Positions 20,503 through 62,216 of a stretch of DNA of 64,000 bases are shown here, in pieces. The notes below the pieces were generated by a model that was not told the origin of the DNA, did no database searches, and was given only the letters and a program-made list of their open reading frames with translations. Made by a program: the position numbers and the translations under genes. The DNA comes from Candidatus Firestoneibacteriota bacterium (GTDB taxonomy: Bacteria; Oederibacteriota; Muellerivitia; Muellerivitales; Muellerivitaceae): positions 3,759 through 67,758 of the forward strand of contig JABDGD010000009.1 in the NCBI GenBank assembly GCA_013286205.1, given 5' to 3'. Position 1 is the first letter of the stretch. Each line of letters opens with the position of its first letter.

Positions 20503-20518
20503 AGCAAGGAACGTGCCG
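20503..20518 (-). promoter_or_regulatory. Sigma-54 (-24/-12) promoter
   Basis: The minus strand reads CGGCACGTTCCTTGCT. The GC doublet is 47 nt upstream of ATG 20457. Confidence 0.75.
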
Positions 20519-20521
20519 TAT

Positions 20522-20559
20522 AAAAACAGAGGGGGAAGACTCTTTCGAATCCTCCCCCT
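20522..20559 (-). terminator. Possible terminator for 20698..20973
   Basis: AGGGGGA (20530-36) pairs with TCCCCCT (20553-59), followed on the minus strand by T5. Its position between the dyad 20626..20655 and promoter 20503 is odd. Confidence 0.35.
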
Positions 20560-20625
20560 GTCTCAAAAAACATTTTTAAACTTTCAAATCATCGCTTTTC
20601 AAAATTTTTACAAGAGGCCCGGCAA

Positions 20626-20655
20626 CCAAAACGATAGGCGCTCTTCTCATTTCGA
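20626..20655. promoter_or_regulatory. Candidate EBP enhancer (UAS) dyad
   Basis: CCAAAACGA-N12-TCATTTCGA, with 9-mer starts 21 bp apart. It lies about 108 bp upstream of the -24 box of promoter 20503..20518. Confidence 0.5.
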
Positions 20656-20697
20656 TGGGGCGTCATCATGAATAGTGTCCCCGAACGACTCCCATCC

Positions 20698-20973
20698 TTA
20701 TCCGTTGCGTCTCGCGGGTTTTACAACCCGGATGATCGACAATAGAACGACCGCTCCCAGCACCGCCACTCCCAACACACCCCAAAAACCATAAACCGCG
20801 AAACCAAAGGTATTGGCCAAGAAACCGCCCACAAAAGCCCCCAGGATGCCGATGATGATATCCGCGATAACTCCCAATCCACCGCCCGTAACCAGCACGC
20901 TGGCCAGCCAACCCGCTAAGCCGCCCACTATGAGAAACCAAATTAAATCGTGCATCTGTGTCGCGTCAGTCAT
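20698..20973 (-). CDS. GlsB/YeaQ/YmgE-family stress membrane protein
   Basis: 91 aa, 3 TM, Gly-rich, with the blocks IWFLIVGGLAGWLASVLV and IIGILGAFVGGFLAN. Confidence 0.8.
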   Translation of the reverse strand: MTDATQMHDLIWFLIVGGLAGWLASVLVTGGGLGVIADIIIGILGAFVGGFLANTFGFAVYGFWGVLGVAVLGAVVLLSIIRVVKPARRNG

Positions 20974-21027
20974 AACTACCTCCTGGATTTTTTCAGCTTG
21001 CCTGTCATCACCTTCGTCCCGACATAA

Positions 21028-21043
21028 AGCAACTTCCGTACCG
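21028..21043 (-). promoter_or_regulatory. Sigma-54 (-24/-12) promoter
   Basis: The minus strand reads CGGTACGGAAGTTGCT, 56 nt upstream of ATG 20973. Confidence 0.65.
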
Positions 21044-21105
21044 CGGTTAACCCCTCTCTTAATACCGTTATCTGGCTTCTTTTACTGGAAACAGAGCTTC
21101 GACTC

Positions 21106-21135
21106 TCAATTTGATATGCCCAAATTTCATTTTGA
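21106..21135. promoter_or_regulatory. Candidate EBP enhancer (UAS) dyad shared by divergent promoters
   Basis: TCAATTTGA-N12-TCATTTTGA, with starts 21 bp apart. It lies between promoters 21028..21043 (-) and 21191..21206 (+). Confidence 0.65.
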
Positions 21136-59398: not shown

Positions 59399-59623
59399 AT
59401 GAATTCAAACATGGAACAAAATAACGAAAAAATTCGAGCCAACATCAATACCACCACCGGAATTTTAAAAGAGGGCATCGGCCGGGCCTCGGGTGACAAA
59501 GACATGGAAACTGAAGGCACTATTCAAAAAACCAAAGGTCAGGCTCAAAAATTGAGCATCTCAATTCAAGACGCGATTAAAAAGGGCAAAACCTTATTTG
59601 GATTCAAGTCTAAAAATGGATGA
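59399..59623 (+). CDS. CsbD-family general stress protein
   Basis: ATG 59399 (RBS AAAGGAAAAG) is used. NNEKIRANINTTTGILKEGIGRASGDKDMETEGTIQKTKGQAQKL fits the CsbD pattern. Confidence 0.7.
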   Translation: MNSNMEQNNEKIRANINTTTGILKEGIGRASGDKDMETEGTIQKTKGQAQKLSISIQDAIKKGKTLFGFKSKNG

Positions 59624-59843
59624 TCCTTCATTGCCGGATCTTTTTTTCTTTTTGATTTGCGTGGCTTTGTCCTTTTTCTTATGGGACGTGGCTCTGCCTC
59701 ACGCTAAAAAGCAACTCAAACCCGAGCATCAAAAAAACGTAAAGTATTTTATAGCGCTCGTTTCTTTGCTGCTTTTTGGCCTGGCCGTGCACTGTGGCTA
59801 TGATGTGGCCAGCAGTGTCTTTAATTTCAACGATCCTCTATAA
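59616..59843 (+). CDS. Small two-TM membrane protein
   Basis: ATG 59616 overlaps the CsbD stop. The TM helices are LFFFLICVALSFFLWDV and YFIALVSLLLFGLAV. Confidence 0.45.
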   Translation: MDDPSLPDLFFFLICVALSFFLWDVALPHAKKQLKPEHQKNVKYFIALVSLLLFGLAVHCGYDVASSVFNFNDPL

Positions 59844-59875
59844 AAAAAGCCGGGGGCTTGTTAGCCCCCAGCTTT
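59842..59875. terminator. Bidirectional hairpin terminator
   Basis: GCCGGGGGC (59849-57) pairs with GCCCCCAGC (59864-72). The A7 run on the 5' side gives U7 for the minus-strand DUF3494 operon transcript. Confidence 0.7.
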
Positions 59876-59903
59876 CAAATATCATCAATAACCCCTTAAA
59901 CCT

Positions 59904-60677
59904 TTAGGGGAAAGTGATGTTGTTCGCCAAGAAAGTCACGTTAGCTGTCTGCGCTAACGCGCGTCCTTCTAACGAGGCGCCCGTATTGAAGGTTACTGCC
60001 GTATGAGCCATAACATTTCCCGCGAAGGAAGCTGTGGTATCTAACGAACAATAGCCGGTCACCTGCCAGAAAATGTTGGCAGCTTTGGCCCCGTTGATCA
60101 GATTAACTTTTCGAGCCGAAGCGACTATCAGATTACCCGTCACCTGAATAATGAACACAGCGTTCGAGTTGCCTTGGGCGTCAAAAGTCATATCCGATGT
60201 CGCTAAATGAAGGTCGCCCAAATCCGTATAAAGACCGGCATAAAGCGTTTGACCACCGATATCCCCGCCAGCGGGAATAACAGCTCCACCCGTGCGATGC
60301 GAAGCGTCTGTGTAGGCAGCACCTAAAGCCAGTTCGGCGTTAGTCGCGGCCGTATTGTTAACATCTGTCGCGCCGCCACAGATCACAATAATGCTTCCAG
60401 GAACAGACGGATTGGTACATGCAAGGCCCCCGCAAACCGTTGTGGCTCCCGTGTTGGTAATGCCCGTAGCGGACAACACCCCATAATTAGCCGCCGTACC
60501 TAAAACCACCATAGCCTGAACGGATTGAGCCGTAGCGATAGGCGTTGCGGTAAAAGTAGGCGTGCCAAATCCCCCGCCGGGATGTGAAGGATCTGAAGGA
60601 TTAGAACTGCTGCAACCCACCATCAAAGCCATTGGAAGCAGGGCCATAACTACTAAACTACCGATTAACTTTTTCAT
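59904..60677 (-). CDS. DUF3494 (ice-binding-protein fold) lipoprotein
   Basis: The lipobox is LMVGCSSS. The blocks are AANYGVLSATGITNTGATTVCG, LALGAAYTDA, IGGQTLYAGLY, FDAQGNSNAVFIIQ, NGAKAANIFWQV and GRALAQTANVTF. Confidence 0.75.
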   Translation of the reverse strand: MKKLIGSLVVMALLPMALMVGCSSSNPSDPSHPGGGFGTPTFTATPIATAQSVQAMVVLGTAANYGVLSATGITNTGATTVCGGLACTNPSVPGSIIVICGGATDVNNTAATNAELALGAAYTDASHRTGGAVIPAGGDIGGQTLYAGLYTDLGDLHLATSDMTFDAQGNSNAVFIIQVTGNLIVASARKVNLINGAKAANIFWQVTGYCSLDTTASFAGNVMAHTAVTFNTGASLEGRALAQTANVTFLANNITFP

Positions 60678-60760
60678 TTTATCTCTTTTCTTTATCTATT
60701 CCCGAACCCGAGGGTTCAGGAAGCCAGCACAAACCGGCTCACATCCGGTTAAATCAAAAA

Positions 60761-61342
60761 CTAAATAAACGACAACCCTACTAAGAGCGTAAAAGTGCCG
60801 TTTTGAACGTTTTGAGTGGAATTCACATTGGTCAACCCAATTTCATAACGCCCGCTCACCAAGAACTTGGAGAAGGTCGCTTGAGCTCCAATAATCAACC
60901 CAATATCGGTTTGATTGATATTGGCCACACCCGCCACATTGGTGTCAAAAGCCGGACCCAATAAAATACCGGGATTGAAAACGGGTATGCCAAAGGTGAC
61001 ATCCAAAAGAACCGGAACTTCGATGTAGTTCAGTTGGTAAGCGTTGCCGTTATATTTGCCGCCCTTTTGCTCATAAAGAATTTCCGGCTGAAGCGCTAAA
61101 GACGGGGTGAGAGGCAGGTCGGCAAAAGCGCCGGCCACAAATCCCAGGCGTGAAGCGAAAACATCTTTGGCGTCAGACCCGTTAAATCCCGCCAAATCAA
61201 TACCGCCTTCCACACCCAACCTGGGCCCCGAACCTTCCTCGATCCCGCCTTCAGCTCTCGCCAAAGAACTTCCCGTCGCGAAAAGACACAAACAACTTAT
61301 AGTTAATAAAAACTTTTTCATTTCTTTACCTTTCATCGTCAT
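60761..61342 (-). CDS. Outer-membrane beta-barrel protein (PorT/OMP_b-brl_2-like), paralog of 18711..19304
   Basis: The blocks are LGVEGGIDLAGFNG, ASRLGFVAGAF, QPEILYEQKGGKY and YIEVPVLLD. ATG 61321 (MKKFLLT) is an alternative start. Confidence 0.7.
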   Translation of the reverse strand: MTMKGKEMKKFLLTISCLCLFATGSSLARAEGGIEEGSGPRLGVEGGIDLAGFNGSDAKDVFASRLGFVAGAFADLPLTPSLALQPEILYEQKGGKYNGNAYQLNYIEVPVLLDVTFGIPVFNPGILLGPAFDTNVAGVANINQTDIGLIIGAQATFSKFLVSGRYEIGLTNVNSTQNVQNGTFTLLVGLSFI

Positions 61343-61344
61343 AG

Positions 61345-62139
61345 TTAGGGGTGGGTAATTTTATTGGTTAACAGCGTTACGTTTCCGTTTTCAGCCAATG
61401 CCCGGCCCGTCAAGACCGCTCCCGTATTCAGCGTCACTGAGGTATAGGCCATGATATTTCCCACCATGGAAACCGTGGTATCCATGGAACAATAGCCCGC
61501 TGCCGTCCAAAAAACGTTGGCCGCTTGCGCGCCGTTAGTCAAAATGATTTTGCGGCCCGGACCAATAACCAGATTATTGGTCGACTGGAAAATAAAGATT
61601 GAATTAATATTTCCATTGCCGTTCAAGGTTAAGTCAGACATAGCCACATTGAGATTGCCTCCGCAATTGTATAAACCGGGATAAAGAGTCTGGCCTCCGA
61701 TATCGGCGCCCGCGGGAATAGAAGCTCCACCCGACCGTCCCGAAGCGTCCGTATAAGCCGTTCCCAGGTTTAGTTTGGCGATATTCGCCGCGCCGTCACC
61801 CACGTCAATCGCGCCGCCGCAGGATTCCACAATCGCTGGCGAACCGGTCACCGAGGTCGAACCATTCGGATAACAGCCGTAACCACCGCAGGTCGTCGTC
61901 GGACCGCTATTGGTAATCCCCGTATAAGAGAGAACCACATAATTGGCCGCATTTCCCAAATTAACCGTGGTTTGCAAGGTGGTTTGAGGTGTTGAATAAG
62001 GGGCCTGTGTGGCGGTTGAGGTGGGACCCGGAGTAGACGACCCTCCTACTGGACCCGAACCGCCGCTATTAGCGCAGCCAATCACAAACAACACAGGAAG
62101 CGATACCAATACAAACAAACCGCCAATAAGCTTTCTCAT
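61345..62139 (-). CDS. DUF3494 (ice-binding-protein fold) lipoprotein
   Basis: The lipobox is FVIGCANS. The blocks are AANYVVLSYTGITNSGPTTTCG, LNLGTAYTDA, IGGQTLYPGLY, NGAQAANVFWTA and GRALAENGNVTL. Confidence 0.75.
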   Translation of the reverse strand: MRKLIGGLFVLVSLPVLFVIGCANSGGSGPVGGSSTPGPTSTATQAPYSTPQTTLQTTVNLGNAANYVVLSYTGITNSGPTTTCGGYGCYPNGSTSVTGSPAIVESCGGAIDVGDGAANIAKLNLGTAYTDASGRSGGASIPAGADIGGQTLYPGLYNCGGNLNVAMSDLTLNGNGNINSIFIFQSTNNLVIGPGRKIILTNGAQAANVFWTAAGYCSMDTTVSMVGNIMAYTSVTLNTGAVLTGRALAENGNVTLLTNKITHP

Positions 62140-62200
62140 TTAAATTTCCTTAACTATTCTTGGACAATTACAAACGCTCATGAATCCAGGCCTTAGTTAA

Positions 62201-62216
62201 AGCAAGTAACATGCCC
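62201..62216 (-). promoter_or_regulatory. Sigma-54 (-24/-12) promoter
   Basis: The minus strand reads GGGCATGTTACTTGCT, 63 nt upstream of ATG 62139. Confidence 0.75.

What the first reader, a model, noticed from the sequence alone, without database searches (positions are those of the whole stretch)
20503..62216. Sixteen strong (plus two weak) sigma-54 -24/-12 promoters packed into ~42 kb
I read 16-mers whose GG and GC doublets are exactly 10 nt apart, as in TGGCAC-N5-TTGCW. Each lies in intergenic DNA, on the strand of the downstream gene, 37-120 nt before its start codon. The strong sites are 20503- CGGCACGTTCCTTGCT; 21028- CGGTACGGAAGTTGCT; 21191+ TGGCTTGCTTCTTGCT; 33179+ TGGTACGCACCTTGCT; 36246- TGGTACTTCGTTTGCC; 37478- TGGCACTTTTCTTGCT; 39136- AGGCACGTTACTTGCT; 45766- TGGCACCGTTCTTGCT; 45994+ TGGCTTGTTTCTTGCT; 50292- AGGCACGAGACTTGCT; 53402- GGGCACATTCCTTGCT; 53571+ CGGCTTGTTTCTTGCT; 56421- CGGCACGTTACTTGCT; 58810- GGGCATGGTACTTGCT; 59004+ CGGTATGTAACTTGCT; 62201- GGGCATGTTACTTGCT. 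The weak sites are 40064- and 18633-. Fourteen of the 16 end in CTTGCT. Sigma-54 normally serves a small, specialised promoter set. Having it head almost every transcription unit across 42 kb is highly unusual. I found none in 1-18 kb.
Basis: partly seen in the sequence, partly recalled or inferred. Interest (0 to 1): 0.9.

Follow-up and report, generated by a model that had tools for sequence, protein, structure and literature searches.

The report
Clustered sigma-54 stress regulon, one activator
A 42-kb stretch from an uncultured soil or sediment bacterium carries about 45 stress and cell-envelope genes in some 16 operons, each apparently switched on by sigma-54 promoters that share one activator-binding site, a regulon that has not been described but works in the classical way.

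Summary
All 16 listed 16-mers are at the stated coordinates, intergenic and correctly oriented. A matrix built from them leaves a clean gap: 16 sites score 18.7 bits or more and the next real hit scores 10.5.

Three calls need changing. The 'strong' site 36246 does not. The 'weak' site 18633 is unsupported.

The sites are not duplications, because conservation is confined to -25..-8.

New here: 13 of the 16 promoters have a paired inverted repeat, ATCAAAAYGAT ~21 bp ATCRTTTTGAT, 60-160 bp upstream. There are 8 such pairs against 0.08 expected. The island also encodes one XylR/DmpR-type activator with a GAFTGA motif.

The activator, the repeat and the promoters recur together in seven related loci (one FCPU426 MAG, two Planctomycetes-labelled MAGs, four unnamed contigs). 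In an independent metagenome scan for the repeat, 18 of 27 matching loci carry an outward sigma-54 site, against 2 of 56 controls.

The genes are of general-stress and envelope type: CsbD, BON, GlsB, lmo0937, DUF308, cyclic-glucan synthase and outer-membrane proteins. Relatives add DnaK, GroESL and Usp.

The mechanism is canonical, like the nif cluster. The regulon, the activator subfamily and the binding site are undescribed in the literature I could search.

The parts
20503..20518 (-). Sigma-54 promoter CGGCACGTTCCTTGCT. It heads rhodanese (20080-20451), a membrane or outer-membrane protein (19535-20044), an lmo0937/DUF5670 protein (19337-19468) and an OMP beta-barrel (18711-19259). The unit possibly continues into SOD, LysM and an AI-2E transporter.
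   Evidence: 29.6 bits. Pfam and NCBIfam. The same rhodanese-OMP-SOD operon sits behind one sigma-54 site in L006.
20625..20656 (.). UAS pair ACCAAAACGAT / CTCATTTCGAT, 21 bp apart, at -138/-159 from P20503.
21028..21043 (-). Sigma-54 promoter CGGTACGGAAGTTGCT. It heads a GlsB/YeaQ/YmgE (Transgly_assoc) gene, 20698-20973.
   Evidence: 22.9 bits. A GlsB homolog lies behind the same kind of promoter plus UAS in L114.
21105..21136 (.). UAS pair shared by the divergent promoters P21028(-) and P21191(+).
21191..21206 (+). Sigma-54 promoter TGGCTTGCTTCTTGCT. It heads a seven-gene unit, 21246-33073: OMP beta-barrels, small proteins, and a 2954-aa GH94 cyclic beta-1,2-glucan-synthase-like protein (24209-33073).
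   Evidence: 23.9 bits.
33084..33115 (.). UAS: CTCATTTTGAG plus a degenerate partner 21 bp away, at about -92 from P33179.
33179..33194 (+). Sigma-54 promoter TGGTACGCACCTTGCT. It heads a lipoprotein gene, 33243-34019.
   Evidence: 19.2 bits.
36246..36261 (-). Doubtful site TGGTACTTCGTTTGCC upstream of 35526-36185 and 35270-35500.
   Evidence: Leave-one-out score -3.0. No UAS. Overlaps a sigma-70-like TTGCCT-18-TAGAAT.
37478..37493 (-). Sigma-54 promoter TGGCACTTTTCTTGCT. It heads a BON-domain gene (37170-37412), a lipoprotein gene (36871-37152) and 36500-36820.
   Evidence: 27.3 bits.
37565..37596 (.). UAS pair ATCAAAATGAG / TTCATTTTGAT at -103/-124 from P37478.
39136..39151 (-). Sigma-54 promoter AGGCACGTTACTTGCT. 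It heads an ice-binding-like (DUF3494) lipoprotein gene, 37993-39075.
   Evidence: 30.7 bits.
39257..39364 (.). UAS half-sites at 39257, 39289 and 39354 (the last is a perfect ATCAAAATGAT), upstream of P39136. They are not in the canonical 21-bp pair.
40064..40079 (-). It heads 39549-39872, 191 nt downstream.
   Evidence: 18.7 bits with a matrix that did not include it. UAS half-site ATCAACTTGAT at 40141-40151, position -93.
45766..45781 (-). Sigma-54 promoter TGGCACCGTTCTTGCT. It heads an SBBP beta-propeller surface protein (42333-45704), an OmpA-family protein (40690-42360), a BON protein (40410-40655) and 40182-40370.
   Evidence: 25.8 bits. Conserved in L003 as TGGCACCCTTCTTGCT.
45851..45922 (.). 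Three UAS half-sites at 45851 (perfect), 45875 and 45912, shared by the divergent promoters P45766(-) and P45994(+).
   Evidence: CGTTTTGA is conserved in L003.
45994..46009 (+). Sigma-54 promoter TGGCTTGTTTCTTGCT. It heads a pirin-like gene (46128-46916) and a response-regulator-GGDEF gene (46956-48473).
   Evidence: 28.6 bits. A 17-nt block is conserved in L003. Pirin lies next to the activator gene in L006, L008, L010 and L011.
48602..50221 (-). Enhancer-binding protein, 539 aa: XylR_N-V4R sensor, AAA+ sigma-54 interaction domain with GAFTGA, and an HTH_8 DNA-binding domain. Proposed activator of the whole island.
   Evidence: Pfam. PDB: full-length match to CapR (6iy8), with GAFTGA visible in the ZraR alignment. 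Zn-site C/E/C/C aligned to MopR. Below the cut-off of every named NCBIfam EBP family.
50292..50307 (-). Sigma-54 promoter AGGCACGAGACTTGCT. It heads the activator's own gene, implying autoregulation.
   Evidence: 23.0 bits. L003 has GGGCATGTTCCTTGCT 61 nt before its ortholog.
50358..50391 (.). UAS pair ATCATTGTGAT / ATCGTATTGAT at -82/-105 from P50292.
   Evidence: AATCAAAACGATA is conserved in L003.
53402..53417 (-). Sigma-54 promoter GGGCACATTCCTTGCT. It heads 52691-53365, a CHASE3-PAS-GGDEF gene (51101-52627) and a DedA/VTT gene (50434-51081).
   Evidence: 18.7 bits.
53480..53510 (.). UAS pair shared by the divergent promoters P53402(-) and P53571(+).
53571..53586 (+). Sigma-54 promoter CGGCTTGTTTCTTGCT. 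It heads a DUF2934 gene, 53647-53856.
   Evidence: 24.3 bits. DUF2934 genes lie behind the same module in L007 and L009.
56421..56436 (-). Sigma-54 promoter CGGCACGTTACTTGCT. It heads a secreted protein (55591-56364), 55112-55504, a DUF308/HdeD-like gene (54506-55078) and a DoxX gene (53953-54369).
   Evidence: 27.4 bits. A homolog of 55591-56364 lies behind a UAS plus sigma-54 site in L030.
56539..56570 (.). UAS pair ATCAAAACGAT / ATCATTTTGAT at -134/-155 from P56421.
58810..58825 (-). Sigma-54 promoter GGGCATGGTACTTGCT. It heads a DUF5670/lmo0937 gene (58622-58774), a DUF2934 gene (58275-58625), a BON gene (57995-58246), a small lipoprotein gene (57752-57991) and 56591-57613.
   Evidence: 29.4 bits. 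Homologs of the small lipoprotein lie behind a UAS plus sigma-54 site in L015, L063 and L100.
58877..58907 (.). UAS: ATCAAACTGAT plus the degenerate TTCGTTTTGAG 20 bp away, shared by P58810(-) and P59004(+).
59004..59019 (+). Sigma-54 promoter CGGTATGTAACTTGCT. It heads a Cys-rich small protein (59064-59333) and a CsbD-like gene (59399-59623).
   Evidence: 24.8 bits.
62201..62216 (-). Sigma-54 promoter GGGCATGTTACTTGCT. It heads an ice-binding-like lipoprotein (61345-62139), an OMP beta-barrel (60761-61342) and a second ice-binding-like lipoprotein (59904-60677).
   Evidence: 31.0 bits.
62329..62339 (.). UAS half-site ATCAAACTGAT at -144 from P62201. Its partner is degenerate.

Best explanation
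The region 20.5-62.2 kb is one clustered sigma-54 regulon. It has about 16 operons and 45-50 genes. Each operon is headed by a -24/-12 promoter with the local consensus YGGCAYG-N3-CTTGCTTTA.

RNA polymerase carrying sigma-54 would sit on these promoters as a closed complex. It would fire only when an ATP-hydrolysing activator, bound 60-160 bp upstream, loops over and remodels it.

The activator site is an inverted pair of 11-bp elements, ATCAAAAYGAT and ATCRTTTTGAT, about 21 bp (two helical turns) apart centre to centre. Four divergent promoter pairs each share one such site.

The most likely activator is the XylR/DmpR-type enhancer-binding protein encoded in the island at 48602-50221(-). Its N-terminal XylR_N/V4R sensor would keep the ATPase off until a still unknown small-molecule or stress signal arrives. 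Here its own gene has a sigma-54 promoter with UAS-like sites, which would give positive feedback.

The output is a general-stress and envelope-remodelling programme:
- small stress proteins: CsbD, BON/OsmY-like, GlsB/YeaQ, lmo0937, DUF308/HdeD-like, DUF2934;
- rhodanese, pirin, DedA and DoxX (SOD only if the rhodanese unit reads through);
- a cyclic beta-1,2-glucan-synthase-like enzyme;
- many outer-membrane proteins and lipoproteins;
- two diguanylate cyclases.

What is shown: the motifs, their statistics, their geometry and their conservation, the activator's domains, and the co-occurrence of activator, UAS and promoters across genomes.

What is inferred: that this activator binds this UAS, what the signal is, and that the genes are induced by stress.
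For: Promoters:
- There are 16 sites at 18.7 bits or more, then a gap down to 10.5. Shuffled sequences reach at most 17.8.
- Against the general consensus, 16 of 22 hits are intergenic in DNA that is 85% coding.
- Information content is confined to -25..-8, and the flanks are only 28% identical, so these are not copies of one another.
- No repeat family covers the promoters.

Upstream activator sequence (UAS):
- Half-sites: 83 against 28 +/- 5.5 expected.
- Pairs 19-25 bp apart: 8 against 0.08 expected, all in promoter regions.
- Positions run from -62 to -160.
- 30 of the 32 intergenic half-sites beyond position 2600 lie in 20.45-62.5 kb.

Activator:
- Domains XylR_N, V4R, Sigma54_activat, AAA_lid_14 and HTH_8.
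- GAFTGA is present, and the protein matches CapR over its full length.
- The sensor aligns to MopR with the Zn-site residues conserved.

Comparative evidence:
- All 7 loci that carry an ortholog (63-77% identity) have at least one UAS pair, against 0-0.02 expected. The 2 loci with unrelated EBPs have none.
- Sigma-54 sites are conserved at orthologous positions. This includes MAGs of 64-67% G+C, where a perfect AT-rich 11-mer is very improbable by chance.

Blind test:
- I scanned metagenomes for the exact UAS pair.
- Overall, 48 of 121 pairs have an outward-facing sigma-54 site within 220 bp, against 12 of 300 control windows.
- For G+C of 0.45 or more and a 12-nt spacer, the figures are 18 of 27 against 2 of 56.
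- The genes behind those sites include homologs of island genes, plus DnaK and a ferritin-like protein.

Sigma-70-like matches are below chance in the island: 10 against 16.9, and 16 against 22.9.
Against: - There are no expression data, no mapped transcription starts and no binding data.
- rpoN is not in the window, and I could not check the rest of the genome.
- The link between this activator and this UAS is correlative. Neighbours of the activator gene are regulon members anyway. The genome may hold other EBPs.
- Three robust promoters (39136, 40064, 62201) have only single or irregular half-sites.
- In most relatives the activator's own gene has no clear sigma-54 site, so autoregulation is not general.
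- In the high-G+C loci L010 and L011, several sigma-54 sites have no nearby UAS.
- 'Stress' is inferred from family names only. Many island proteins have no family at all.
- The same half-site sequence, with a 10-nt spacer, also occurs in unrelated Clostridia-like loci. The sequence alone is therefore not unique to this activator.
Confidence: 0.75

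Rival explanations
1. The promoters are sigma-54 promoters, but the shared upstream repeat is bound by something other than the island's activator. Candidates are another EBP encoded elsewhere, or a nucleoid or accessory protein that bends DNA, such as an IHF- or Fis-like protein. 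The island's EBP would then control only a few neighbours.
For: - The activator-UAS link is only co-occurrence.
- ATCAA is part of the E. coli IHF consensus WATCAANNNNTTR (my own knowledge).
- The same half-site is used in unrelated low-G+C loci that have a different EBP.
- Several sigma-54 sites in L010 and L011 lack the repeat.
Against: - The element is a symmetric pair with fixed two-turn spacing, typical of EBP sites and unlike the asymmetric IHF site.
- Its position, -60 to -160, is the usual EBP range. quotes 100-250 bp for Clostridiales.
- It occurs in all 7 ortholog loci and in none of the 2 non-ortholog EBP loci.
- It lies right beside the activator gene in L003, L006, L007, L008 and L009.
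- Only one EBP is encoded in the 64-kb window.
Confidence: 0.15
2. The regulon is real, but its purpose is not a general stress response. It would instead be a cell-surface or biofilm programme: surface proteins, cyclic glucan and c-di-GMP. That fits the proposal that sigma-54 is mainly a controller of the bacterial exterior.
For: - More than half of the island's products are outer-membrane proteins, lipoproteins, surface beta-propeller or ice-binding-like proteins, OmpA, a cyclic-glucan-synthase-like enzyme and two GGDEF proteins.
- Francke et al. 2011 (PMC3162934) argue for this theme.
Against: - Typical cytoplasmic or membrane general-stress families are also present: CsbD, GlsB, lmo0937, BON, DUF308, rhodanese and pirin, plus SOD if the rhodanese unit reads through.
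- In relatives the same module sits in front of DnaK, GroES/EL, Usp and a ferritin-like gene.
- The two readings are not exclusive.
Confidence: 0.3
3. The 16-mers are not sigma-54 promoters. They would be chance matches, copies of a repeat element, or promoters for another sigma factor such as an ECF sigma.
For: There is no experimental evidence. rpoN was not seen. One listed site (36246) can be read as a sigma-70 promoter.
Against: - Enrichment, intergenic location and orientation all argue against chance.
- There is no flank similarity and no repeat family.
- GG and GC are exactly 10 nt apart in 17 of 17 sites, which is the sigma-54 geometry and not the -35/-10 geometry of ECF promoters.
- A GAFTGA activator is encoded among the sites.
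- An enhancer-type site lies about 100 bp upstream.
- The sites are conserved across diverged genomes.
Confidence: 0.03

Closest known systems
NifA-dependent nif gene cluster of Klebsiella and Azotobacter (from my own knowledge)
   Same: - Many sigma-54 promoters packed in one cluster, about 7-8 in roughly 23 kb, a density like the one here.
- Each promoter has the same activator site (TGT-N10-ACA) about 100-150 bp upstream.
- The activator is encoded inside the cluster.
- Divergent promoters are present.
   Different: - There are about twice as many promoters here.
- The activator has a XylR_N/V4R sensor rather than a GAF sensor.
- The UAS sequence is different.
- The genes are stress and envelope genes, not one metabolic pathway.
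XylR / DmpR / MopR / CapR family of aromatic-sensing sigma-54 activators
   Same: - Same domain order: XylR_N-V4R, AAA+ with GAFTGA, HTH_8.
- Full-length match to CapR 6iy8.
- The sensor aligns to MopR with the Zn-binding C/E/C/C conserved.
   Different: - The sensor is only distantly related (57-60 bits).
- MopR His106, which I recall as a phenol contact, aligns to Leu.
- The protein scores 327 against a cut-off of 999 for NCBIfam MobR.
- No aromatic-catabolism genes are nearby.
- Known members drive one or two catabolic promoters, not 16.
General stress regulons of sigma-S (E. coli), sigma-B (Bacillus, Listeria) and EcfG (Alphaproteobacteria) (from my own knowledge)
   Same: The protein families overlap: CsbD, OsmY/BON, YeaQ/YmgE (GlsB), lmo0937, HdeD-like DUF308, SOD, Usp and Dps/ferritin.
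   Different: Those regulons use sigma-70-family factors controlled by partner switching or proteolysis, and their genes are scattered round the chromosome. Here the factor is sigma-54 with an ATPase activator and enhancer sites, and the genes are clustered.
Predicted sigma-54 control of chaperone, Usp and MscS genes in Planctomycetia (PMC12316311, 2025)
   Same: It reports sigma-54-type promoters enriched in front of GroES/EL-DnaK-type chaperones, proteases, UspA and MscS in Planctomycetota. The Planctomycetes-labelled relatives here show the same thing.
   Different: In the passages I read, that study is a promoter-matrix survey. It names no activator, no UAS and no clustered island, and it does not cover FCPU426.
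PspF / phage-shock envelope stress response
   Same: A sigma-54 activator that drives an envelope-stress response. The AAA+ domain is homologous.
   Different: PspF has no sensor domain and is controlled by PspA. It controls two promoters. No psp genes are present here.

Membership tests
Sigma-54 (-24/-12) promoter class | Invariant GG and GC doublets exactly 10 nt apart, within TGGCAC-N5-TTGCW. | tested here: met
   GG, TTGC and the spacing are present in 17 of 17 aligned sites. Ten sites have at most 1 mismatch to the general consensus, against 1.35 expected.
Sigma-54 (-24/-12) promoter class | Located upstream of a gene, on the gene's strand. | tested here: met
   All robust sites are intergenic and face a start codon 35-191 nt away.
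Sigma-54 (-24/-12) promoter class | Dependence on an AAA+ enhancer-binding protein bound at an upstream site. | tested here: inconclusive
   A GAFTGA EBP is encoded in the island, and a shared UAS lies at -60..-160. Dependence itself needs an experiment.
Sigma-54 (-24/-12) promoter class | rpoN present in the genome. | not testable with these tools
   There is no Sigma54 domain among the window's ORFs. The rest of the genome is not available.
Sigma-54 (-24/-12) promoter class | Transcription start about 11-13 nt downstream of the GC doublet. | not testable with these tools
   There are no RNA data.
Bacterial enhancer-binding proteins, XylR/DmpR (V4R) subgroup | AAA+ sigma-54 interaction domain with a GAFTGA loop. 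| tested here: met
   PF00158 at 4.7e-70. 'GAFTGA' is visible in the alignment to ZraR.
Bacterial enhancer-binding proteins, XylR/DmpR (V4R) subgroup | C-terminal Fis-type HTH (HTH_8). | tested here: met
   PF02954 at 4.6e-14, residues 494-533.
Bacterial enhancer-binding proteins, XylR/DmpR (V4R) subgroup | N-terminal XylR_N plus V4R sensor with a Zn site. | tested here: met
   PF06505 at 5.7e-24 and PF02830 at 7.5e-09. C/E/C/C align with the MopR Zn ligands (the ligand identities are from my own recall).
Bacterial enhancer-binding proteins, XylR/DmpR (V4R) subgroup | Activated by aromatic effectors and controls aromatic catabolism. | tested here: inconclusive
   No catabolic genes appear in the island or in the seven related loci. 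The protein is below the MobR cut-off. Effector binding itself cannot be tested here.
General stress response regulon | Contains the protein families that recur in sigma-S, sigma-B and EcfG regulons. | tested here: met
   CsbD, BON, Transgly_assoc, DUF5670/lmo0937, DUF308, SOD and rhodanese in the island. DnaK, GroESL, Usp and a ferritin-like gene in relatives.
General stress response regulon | Induced by several unrelated stresses or by growth arrest. | not testable with these tools
   There are no expression data.

The most novel reading that the evidence does not exclude
In candidate phylum FCPU426 and in at least part of the Planctomycetota, the general stress and heat-shock response would be run by sigma-54 together with a single, highly conserved XylR/V4R-type enhancer-binding protein acting through the ATCAAAAYGAT pair. 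It would not be run by a sigma-70-family stress sigma such as RpoS, SigB, EcfG or RpoH. That would be a further, mechanistically different solution to the general stress response: ATP-dependent, enhancer-driven and tightly off in the absence of signal. Its master regulator would sense its signal directly through a small-molecule-binding domain.
Probability: 0.35. Interest if true: 0.7.

Novelty: new member of a known kind. Interest (0 to 1): 0.5.

Why it matters
Nothing is known about gene regulation in candidate division FCPU426, and very little about stress regulation in Planctomycetota.

This island gives a complete, testable regulatory circuit read from sequence alone. It has a promoter class, an activator-binding site, a candidate activator with a ligand-sensing domain, and about 16 target operons.

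A single-activator sigma-54 regulon of this size is large. A survey of Clostridiales found 65% of EBPs controlling one operon and the rest two to six (PMC6615313).

The motif pair can now be used to reconstruct the regulon in any MAG of these lineages. It also assigns a shared physiological context to dozens of proteins that have no known family.

If this is the general stress response of these phyla, it would broaden the known ways in which bacteria organise that response.

Tried and rejected
1. The search for related loci on metagenome contigs with the activator protein found nothing. I used the search for homologous proteins plus look-up of encoding contigs instead.

2. Rfam found no RNA families in the window at gathering threshold. 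It gave only a chance-level CRISPR-DR hit in 1-2700.

3. I suspected that 1-2600 was a long non-coding stretch. It is not. A frame open over 1-2541 on the minus strand runs off the window edge.

4. I tested whether the promoters are segmental duplications. They are not.

5. I considered IHF as the protein behind the upstream repeat. I rejected it as the main reading because of the symmetry and the fixed two-turn pairing, but kept it inside rival 1.

6. Cluster-member lookup gave no taxonomic names for the source contig. The lineage therefore rests on the nearest named genome, an FCPU426 MAG whose activator is 73% identical. That is weak, because this protein is 63-77% identical across many lineages.

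7. NCBIfam added almost nothing for the island proteins that have no Pfam family.

8. Literature searches found no description of this regulon: FCPU426; sigma-54 with CsbD and general stress; Planctomycetes with sigma-54; Pirellula EBPs; V4R with stress.

9. The first run of the statistics script timed out and was rerun.

Full report
**1. The observation**

Enrichment is clear:
- GGN8TTGCT occurs 25 times against 10.6 +/- 3.0 in dinucleotide shuffles.
- I used the general sigma-54 consensus TGGCAC-N5-TTGCW (from my own knowledge, Barrios et al. 1999), with GG and GC required.
- At one mismatch or fewer there are 10 hits against 1.35 expected.
- At two mismatches or fewer there are 22 hits. Sixteen are intergenic, although about 85% of the window is coding. 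The six coding hits are at or below the chance level.
- Every intergenic hit points at a start codon 35-118 nt away. For site 40064 the distance is 191 nt.

A 22-column weight matrix built from the 16 'strong' sites separates the class cleanly.
- Sixteen sites score between 18.7 and 31.0 bits, and the next real hit scores 10.5.
- Shuffled sequence peaks at 10.9-17.8 bits.
- The untrained 'weak' site 40064 scores 18.7.
- Site 18633 does not reach 8 bits.

Site 36246 is doubtful. It has no activator site, and it overlaps a sigma-70-like TTGCCT-18-TAGAAT. Site 18633 is rejected.

By my own operon calls, 17 of about 19 transcription units between 20.4 and 62.3 kb carry a site. The divergent pair 34117-34491(-) and 34679-35266(+) does not.

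**2. The sites are not copies of each other**

In an alignment of 17 sites, information content is confined to -25..-8.
- GG is present in 17 of 17.
- C at -16 is present in 15 of 17.
- TTGC is present in 17 of 17.
- T at -11 and T at -9 are each present in 16 of 17.

The flanks are 28% identical on average and 38% at most, which is the random level. No direct-repeat family covers any promoter. Selection on a protein-binding site explains this. Duplication does not.

**3. What surrounds the sites**

Pfam and NCBIfam scans show what the operons behind the promoters encode.
- Small stress proteins: CsbD, several BON-domain proteins, GlsB/YeaQ (Transgly_assoc), two lmo0937/DUF5670 proteins, a DUF308/HdeD-like protein and two DUF2934 proteins.
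- Other cytoplasmic or membrane proteins: DoxX, DedA/VTT, rhodanese and a pirin-like protein.
- A 2954-aa GH94 cyclic beta-1,2-glucan-synthase-like protein.
- Surface and envelope proteins: OmpA, an SBBP beta-propeller surface protein, three ice-binding-like (DUF3494) lipoproteins and several OMP beta-barrels.
- Signalling proteins: two GGDEF proteins.
- Many secreted or lipoproteins with no family.

In the middle, at 48602-50221(-), sits the only enhancer-binding protein (EBP) in the window. Its domains are XylR_N, V4R, Sigma54_activat, AAA_lid_14 and HTH_8.
- It carries GAFTGA and matches the DmpR-like CapR structure over its full length.
- Its sensor aligns to MopR with the four Zn-site residues in place, but only at 57-60 bits.
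- It is below the cut-off of every named EBP family in NCBIfam. The best full-length score is 327, for MobR, against a cut-off of 999.

Sigma-70-like consensus matches are fewer than chance in the island: 10 against 16.9, and 16 against 22.9.

**4. A shared enhancer**

Reading the 260 nt upstream of each promoter revealed a recurring element, ATCAAAAYGAT.
- Allowing two mismatches, it occurs 83 times against 28.3 +/- 5.5 expected.
- Pairs 19-25 bp apart occur 8 times against 0.08 expected, and all 8 lie in promoter regions.
- Allowing three mismatches, nine pairs serve 13 promoters. Four of these pairs lie between divergent promoters and serve both.
- Promoters 39136, 40064 and 62201 have single or irregular half-sites.
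- Half-site centres lie at -62 to -160 relative to the predicted start. That is the usual enhancer range. A Clostridiales survey reports 100-250 bp (PMC6615313).
- Of the 32 intergenic half-sites beyond position 2600, 30 lie in 20.45-62.5 kb.

**5. Relatives**

The window matches two Logan assemblies. The nearest named genome is a MAG of candidate division FCPU426, whose EBP is 73% identical.

The EBP family is very conserved. The best 120 database hits are 63-100% identical and all have the V4R architecture. The few that carry a name are from MAGs labelled Planctomycetes or Planctomycetota.

I fetched seven ortholog loci (L003, L006-L011).
- Each has at least one UAS pair, against 0-0.02 expected. 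Two loci with unrelated EBPs (L004, L005) have none.
- Sigma-54 sites sit at orthologous places. In L003 these are the EBP's own gene, the pirin operon and the SBBP gene. In the pirin/SBBP spacer the -24/-12 blocks stand out as runs of identity within spacer DNA that is 68% identical overall. Upstream of the EBP gene part of a UAS element is conserved, but the aligner did not bring the two promoters into register.
- L006 has the same rhodanese-OMP-SOD operon behind one site.
- L007 and L009 have a UAS pair next to an outward-facing site in front of a DUF2934 gene. In L007 the pair sits between that site and a divergent one.
- The MAG L008, labelled Planctomycetes and 64% G+C, has two perfect ATCAAAATGAT elements 20 bp apart upstream of the pirin promoter, beside the EBP gene.
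- In these relatives the neighbourhood also holds GroES/EL, Usp, SOD, ice-binding-like proteins and an AI-2E transporter, several of them behind sigma-54 sites.

**6. A blind test**

I scanned the metagenome collection for the exact pair ATCAAAATGA-N10-12-TCATTTTGAT, without reference to promoters or to the EBP. The scan returned 121 pairs in 120 loci.
- Overall, 48 pairs have an outward-facing sigma-54 site within 220 bp, against 12 of 300 control windows placed 1.2-3 kb away in the same loci.
- For loci with G+C of 0.45 or more and a 12-nt spacer, which is this window's geometry, the figures are 18 of 27 against 2 of 56.
- Those promoters are of the local CTTGCT type.
- The first genes behind them include homologs of island genes: GlsB, ice-binding-like lipoproteins, 55591-56364 and the small lipoprotein 57752-57991. 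They also include DnaK, a ferritin-like protein and an OMP.
- A few of these loci also carry the EBP ortholog.
- A second population has low G+C and a 10-nt spacer, and 15 of 27 have a sigma-54 site. It belongs to Clostridia-like loci where a roughly 598-aa EBP lies next to a cdsB-like gene. This is probably the CdsR regulon (PMC6615313) and is a separate system.

**7. Mechanism**

The best reading is a canonical sigma-54 regulon.
- Closed complexes sit at the -24/-12 sites.
- They are activated by an EBP oligomer assembled on a two-turn-spaced inverted pair about 100 bp upstream.
- The EBP is of the XylR/DmpR type. In that type, from my own knowledge, the N-terminal sensor represses the ATPase until an effector binds.
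- In this window the EBP gene has its own promoter and UAS-like sites, which implies positive feedback. This feature is not general among the relatives.

The signal is unknown. The sensor keeps the Zn site. MopR His106, which I recall as a phenol contact, aligns to Leu.

**8. Comparison with what is known, and novelty**

The architecture is that of the nif cluster: many sigma-54 promoters, one UAS, and the activator encoded inside.

What is unusual is about 16 operons for one activator. In Clostridiales, 65% of EBPs control one operon and the rest two to six. The content is also unusual, because these families are normally controlled by sigma-S, sigma-B or EcfG.

A 2025 matrix survey noted sigma-54-type promoters in front of chaperone, Usp and MscS genes in Planctomycetia (PMC12316311). 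In the passages I read, it names no activator, no UAS and no island.

I found no paper that describes this regulon.

I file it as a new member of a known kind, with moderate interest. The more novel reading is that this is the general stress response of these phyla. That reading is not excluded, and I give it a probability of about 0.35.

Noticed in passing
L021, L065, L083, L084, L108, L112, L122 (metagenome loci, G+C 0.30-0.43): The same half-sites with a 10-nt spacer (ATCAAAATGA-N10-TCATTTTGAT) lie 70-190 bp upstream of TGGCATGAATATTGCT-type sigma-54 promoters. In L021, L065, L083 and L122 the promoter precedes a cdsB-like L-cysteine desulfidase gene, and a roughly 598-aa EBP gene lies next to it. 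In L084 and L108 the downstream genes are of a different kind. I did not examine the genes in L112. The cdsB-like loci are probably the Clostridial CdsR regulon, so the half-site sequence is shared by an unrelated EBP system.
   Followed up: partly
window 37640-37790 and 50340-50480 (minus strand): A segment of roughly 110 nt is similar upstream of P37478 (the BON operon) and of the EBP's own promoter P50292. It reads AAGTGATAACCT...GTGACC.GTGGCC.AT...ACGATA.G..GC..CAGATCACA. It may be a duplicated regulatory module or a second binding site. Part of it, AATCAAAACGATA, is conserved upstream of the L003 EBP gene (repeat D9).
   Followed up: partly
window 21191, 45994, 53571 (+); L003 7112; L006 15557; L016 2670: A distinct -24 variant, TGGCTTG(C/T)TTCTTGC(T/C), with GGCTTG in place of GGCAYG, recurs almost identically. 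In the window it is always the plus-strand member of a divergent pair. It is conserved for the pirin operon in L003, and it precedes DnaK in L016. It may be a promoter subclass with different closed-complex properties.
   Followed up: no
L010 7499-7509: A perfect ATCAAAATGAT in DNA of 64% G+C lies between the sigma-54 promoter (7534-) and the groES start. That places it downstream of the -12 element rather than upstream.
   Followed up: no
window 1-2541 (minus strand): A reading frame open for 847 codons runs off the left edge of the window, so the ORF listing does not list it. It is a large secreted protein, and it has a Thr-rich 24-nt tandem repeat at 308-357. Without this frame the region looks like 2.6 kb of non-coding DNA.
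   Followed up: yes
window 38618-38886 and 42616-43403: The ice-binding-like lipoprotein gene and the SBBP beta-propeller gene share a 12-nt-periodic repeat that encodes Thr- and Asn-rich linkers (families D1 and D2, and the TRF arrays). Unrelated surface proteins of the regulon thus share a low-complexity linker.
   Followed up: no
window 2632-5012 and 13384-13635: Paralogs of island genes lie outside the island and have no sigma-54 site. They are DedA 2632-3267, PLD 3287-4519, rhodanese 4638-5012 and a BON-like gene 13384-13635. They may be housekeeping copies alongside inducible copies.
   Followed up: partly
window 6382-9556: A 474-aa AAA+ protein gives weak AAA_5 and Sigma54_activat hits. 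It has no HTH and no GAFTGA-type match. A 581-aa VWA-domain protein follows it. This looks like a MoxR/VWA-type pair rather than an EBP.
   Followed up: no
window 62406-62696: An sll1863-family stress-response protein lies just beyond the last promoter and has no recognisable sigma-54 site. Upstream of the next gene there is only a weak TGGCGCAACCAGGGCT, at about 63110-63125 on the minus strand. The right-hand border of the island may lie outside the window.
   Followed up: partly
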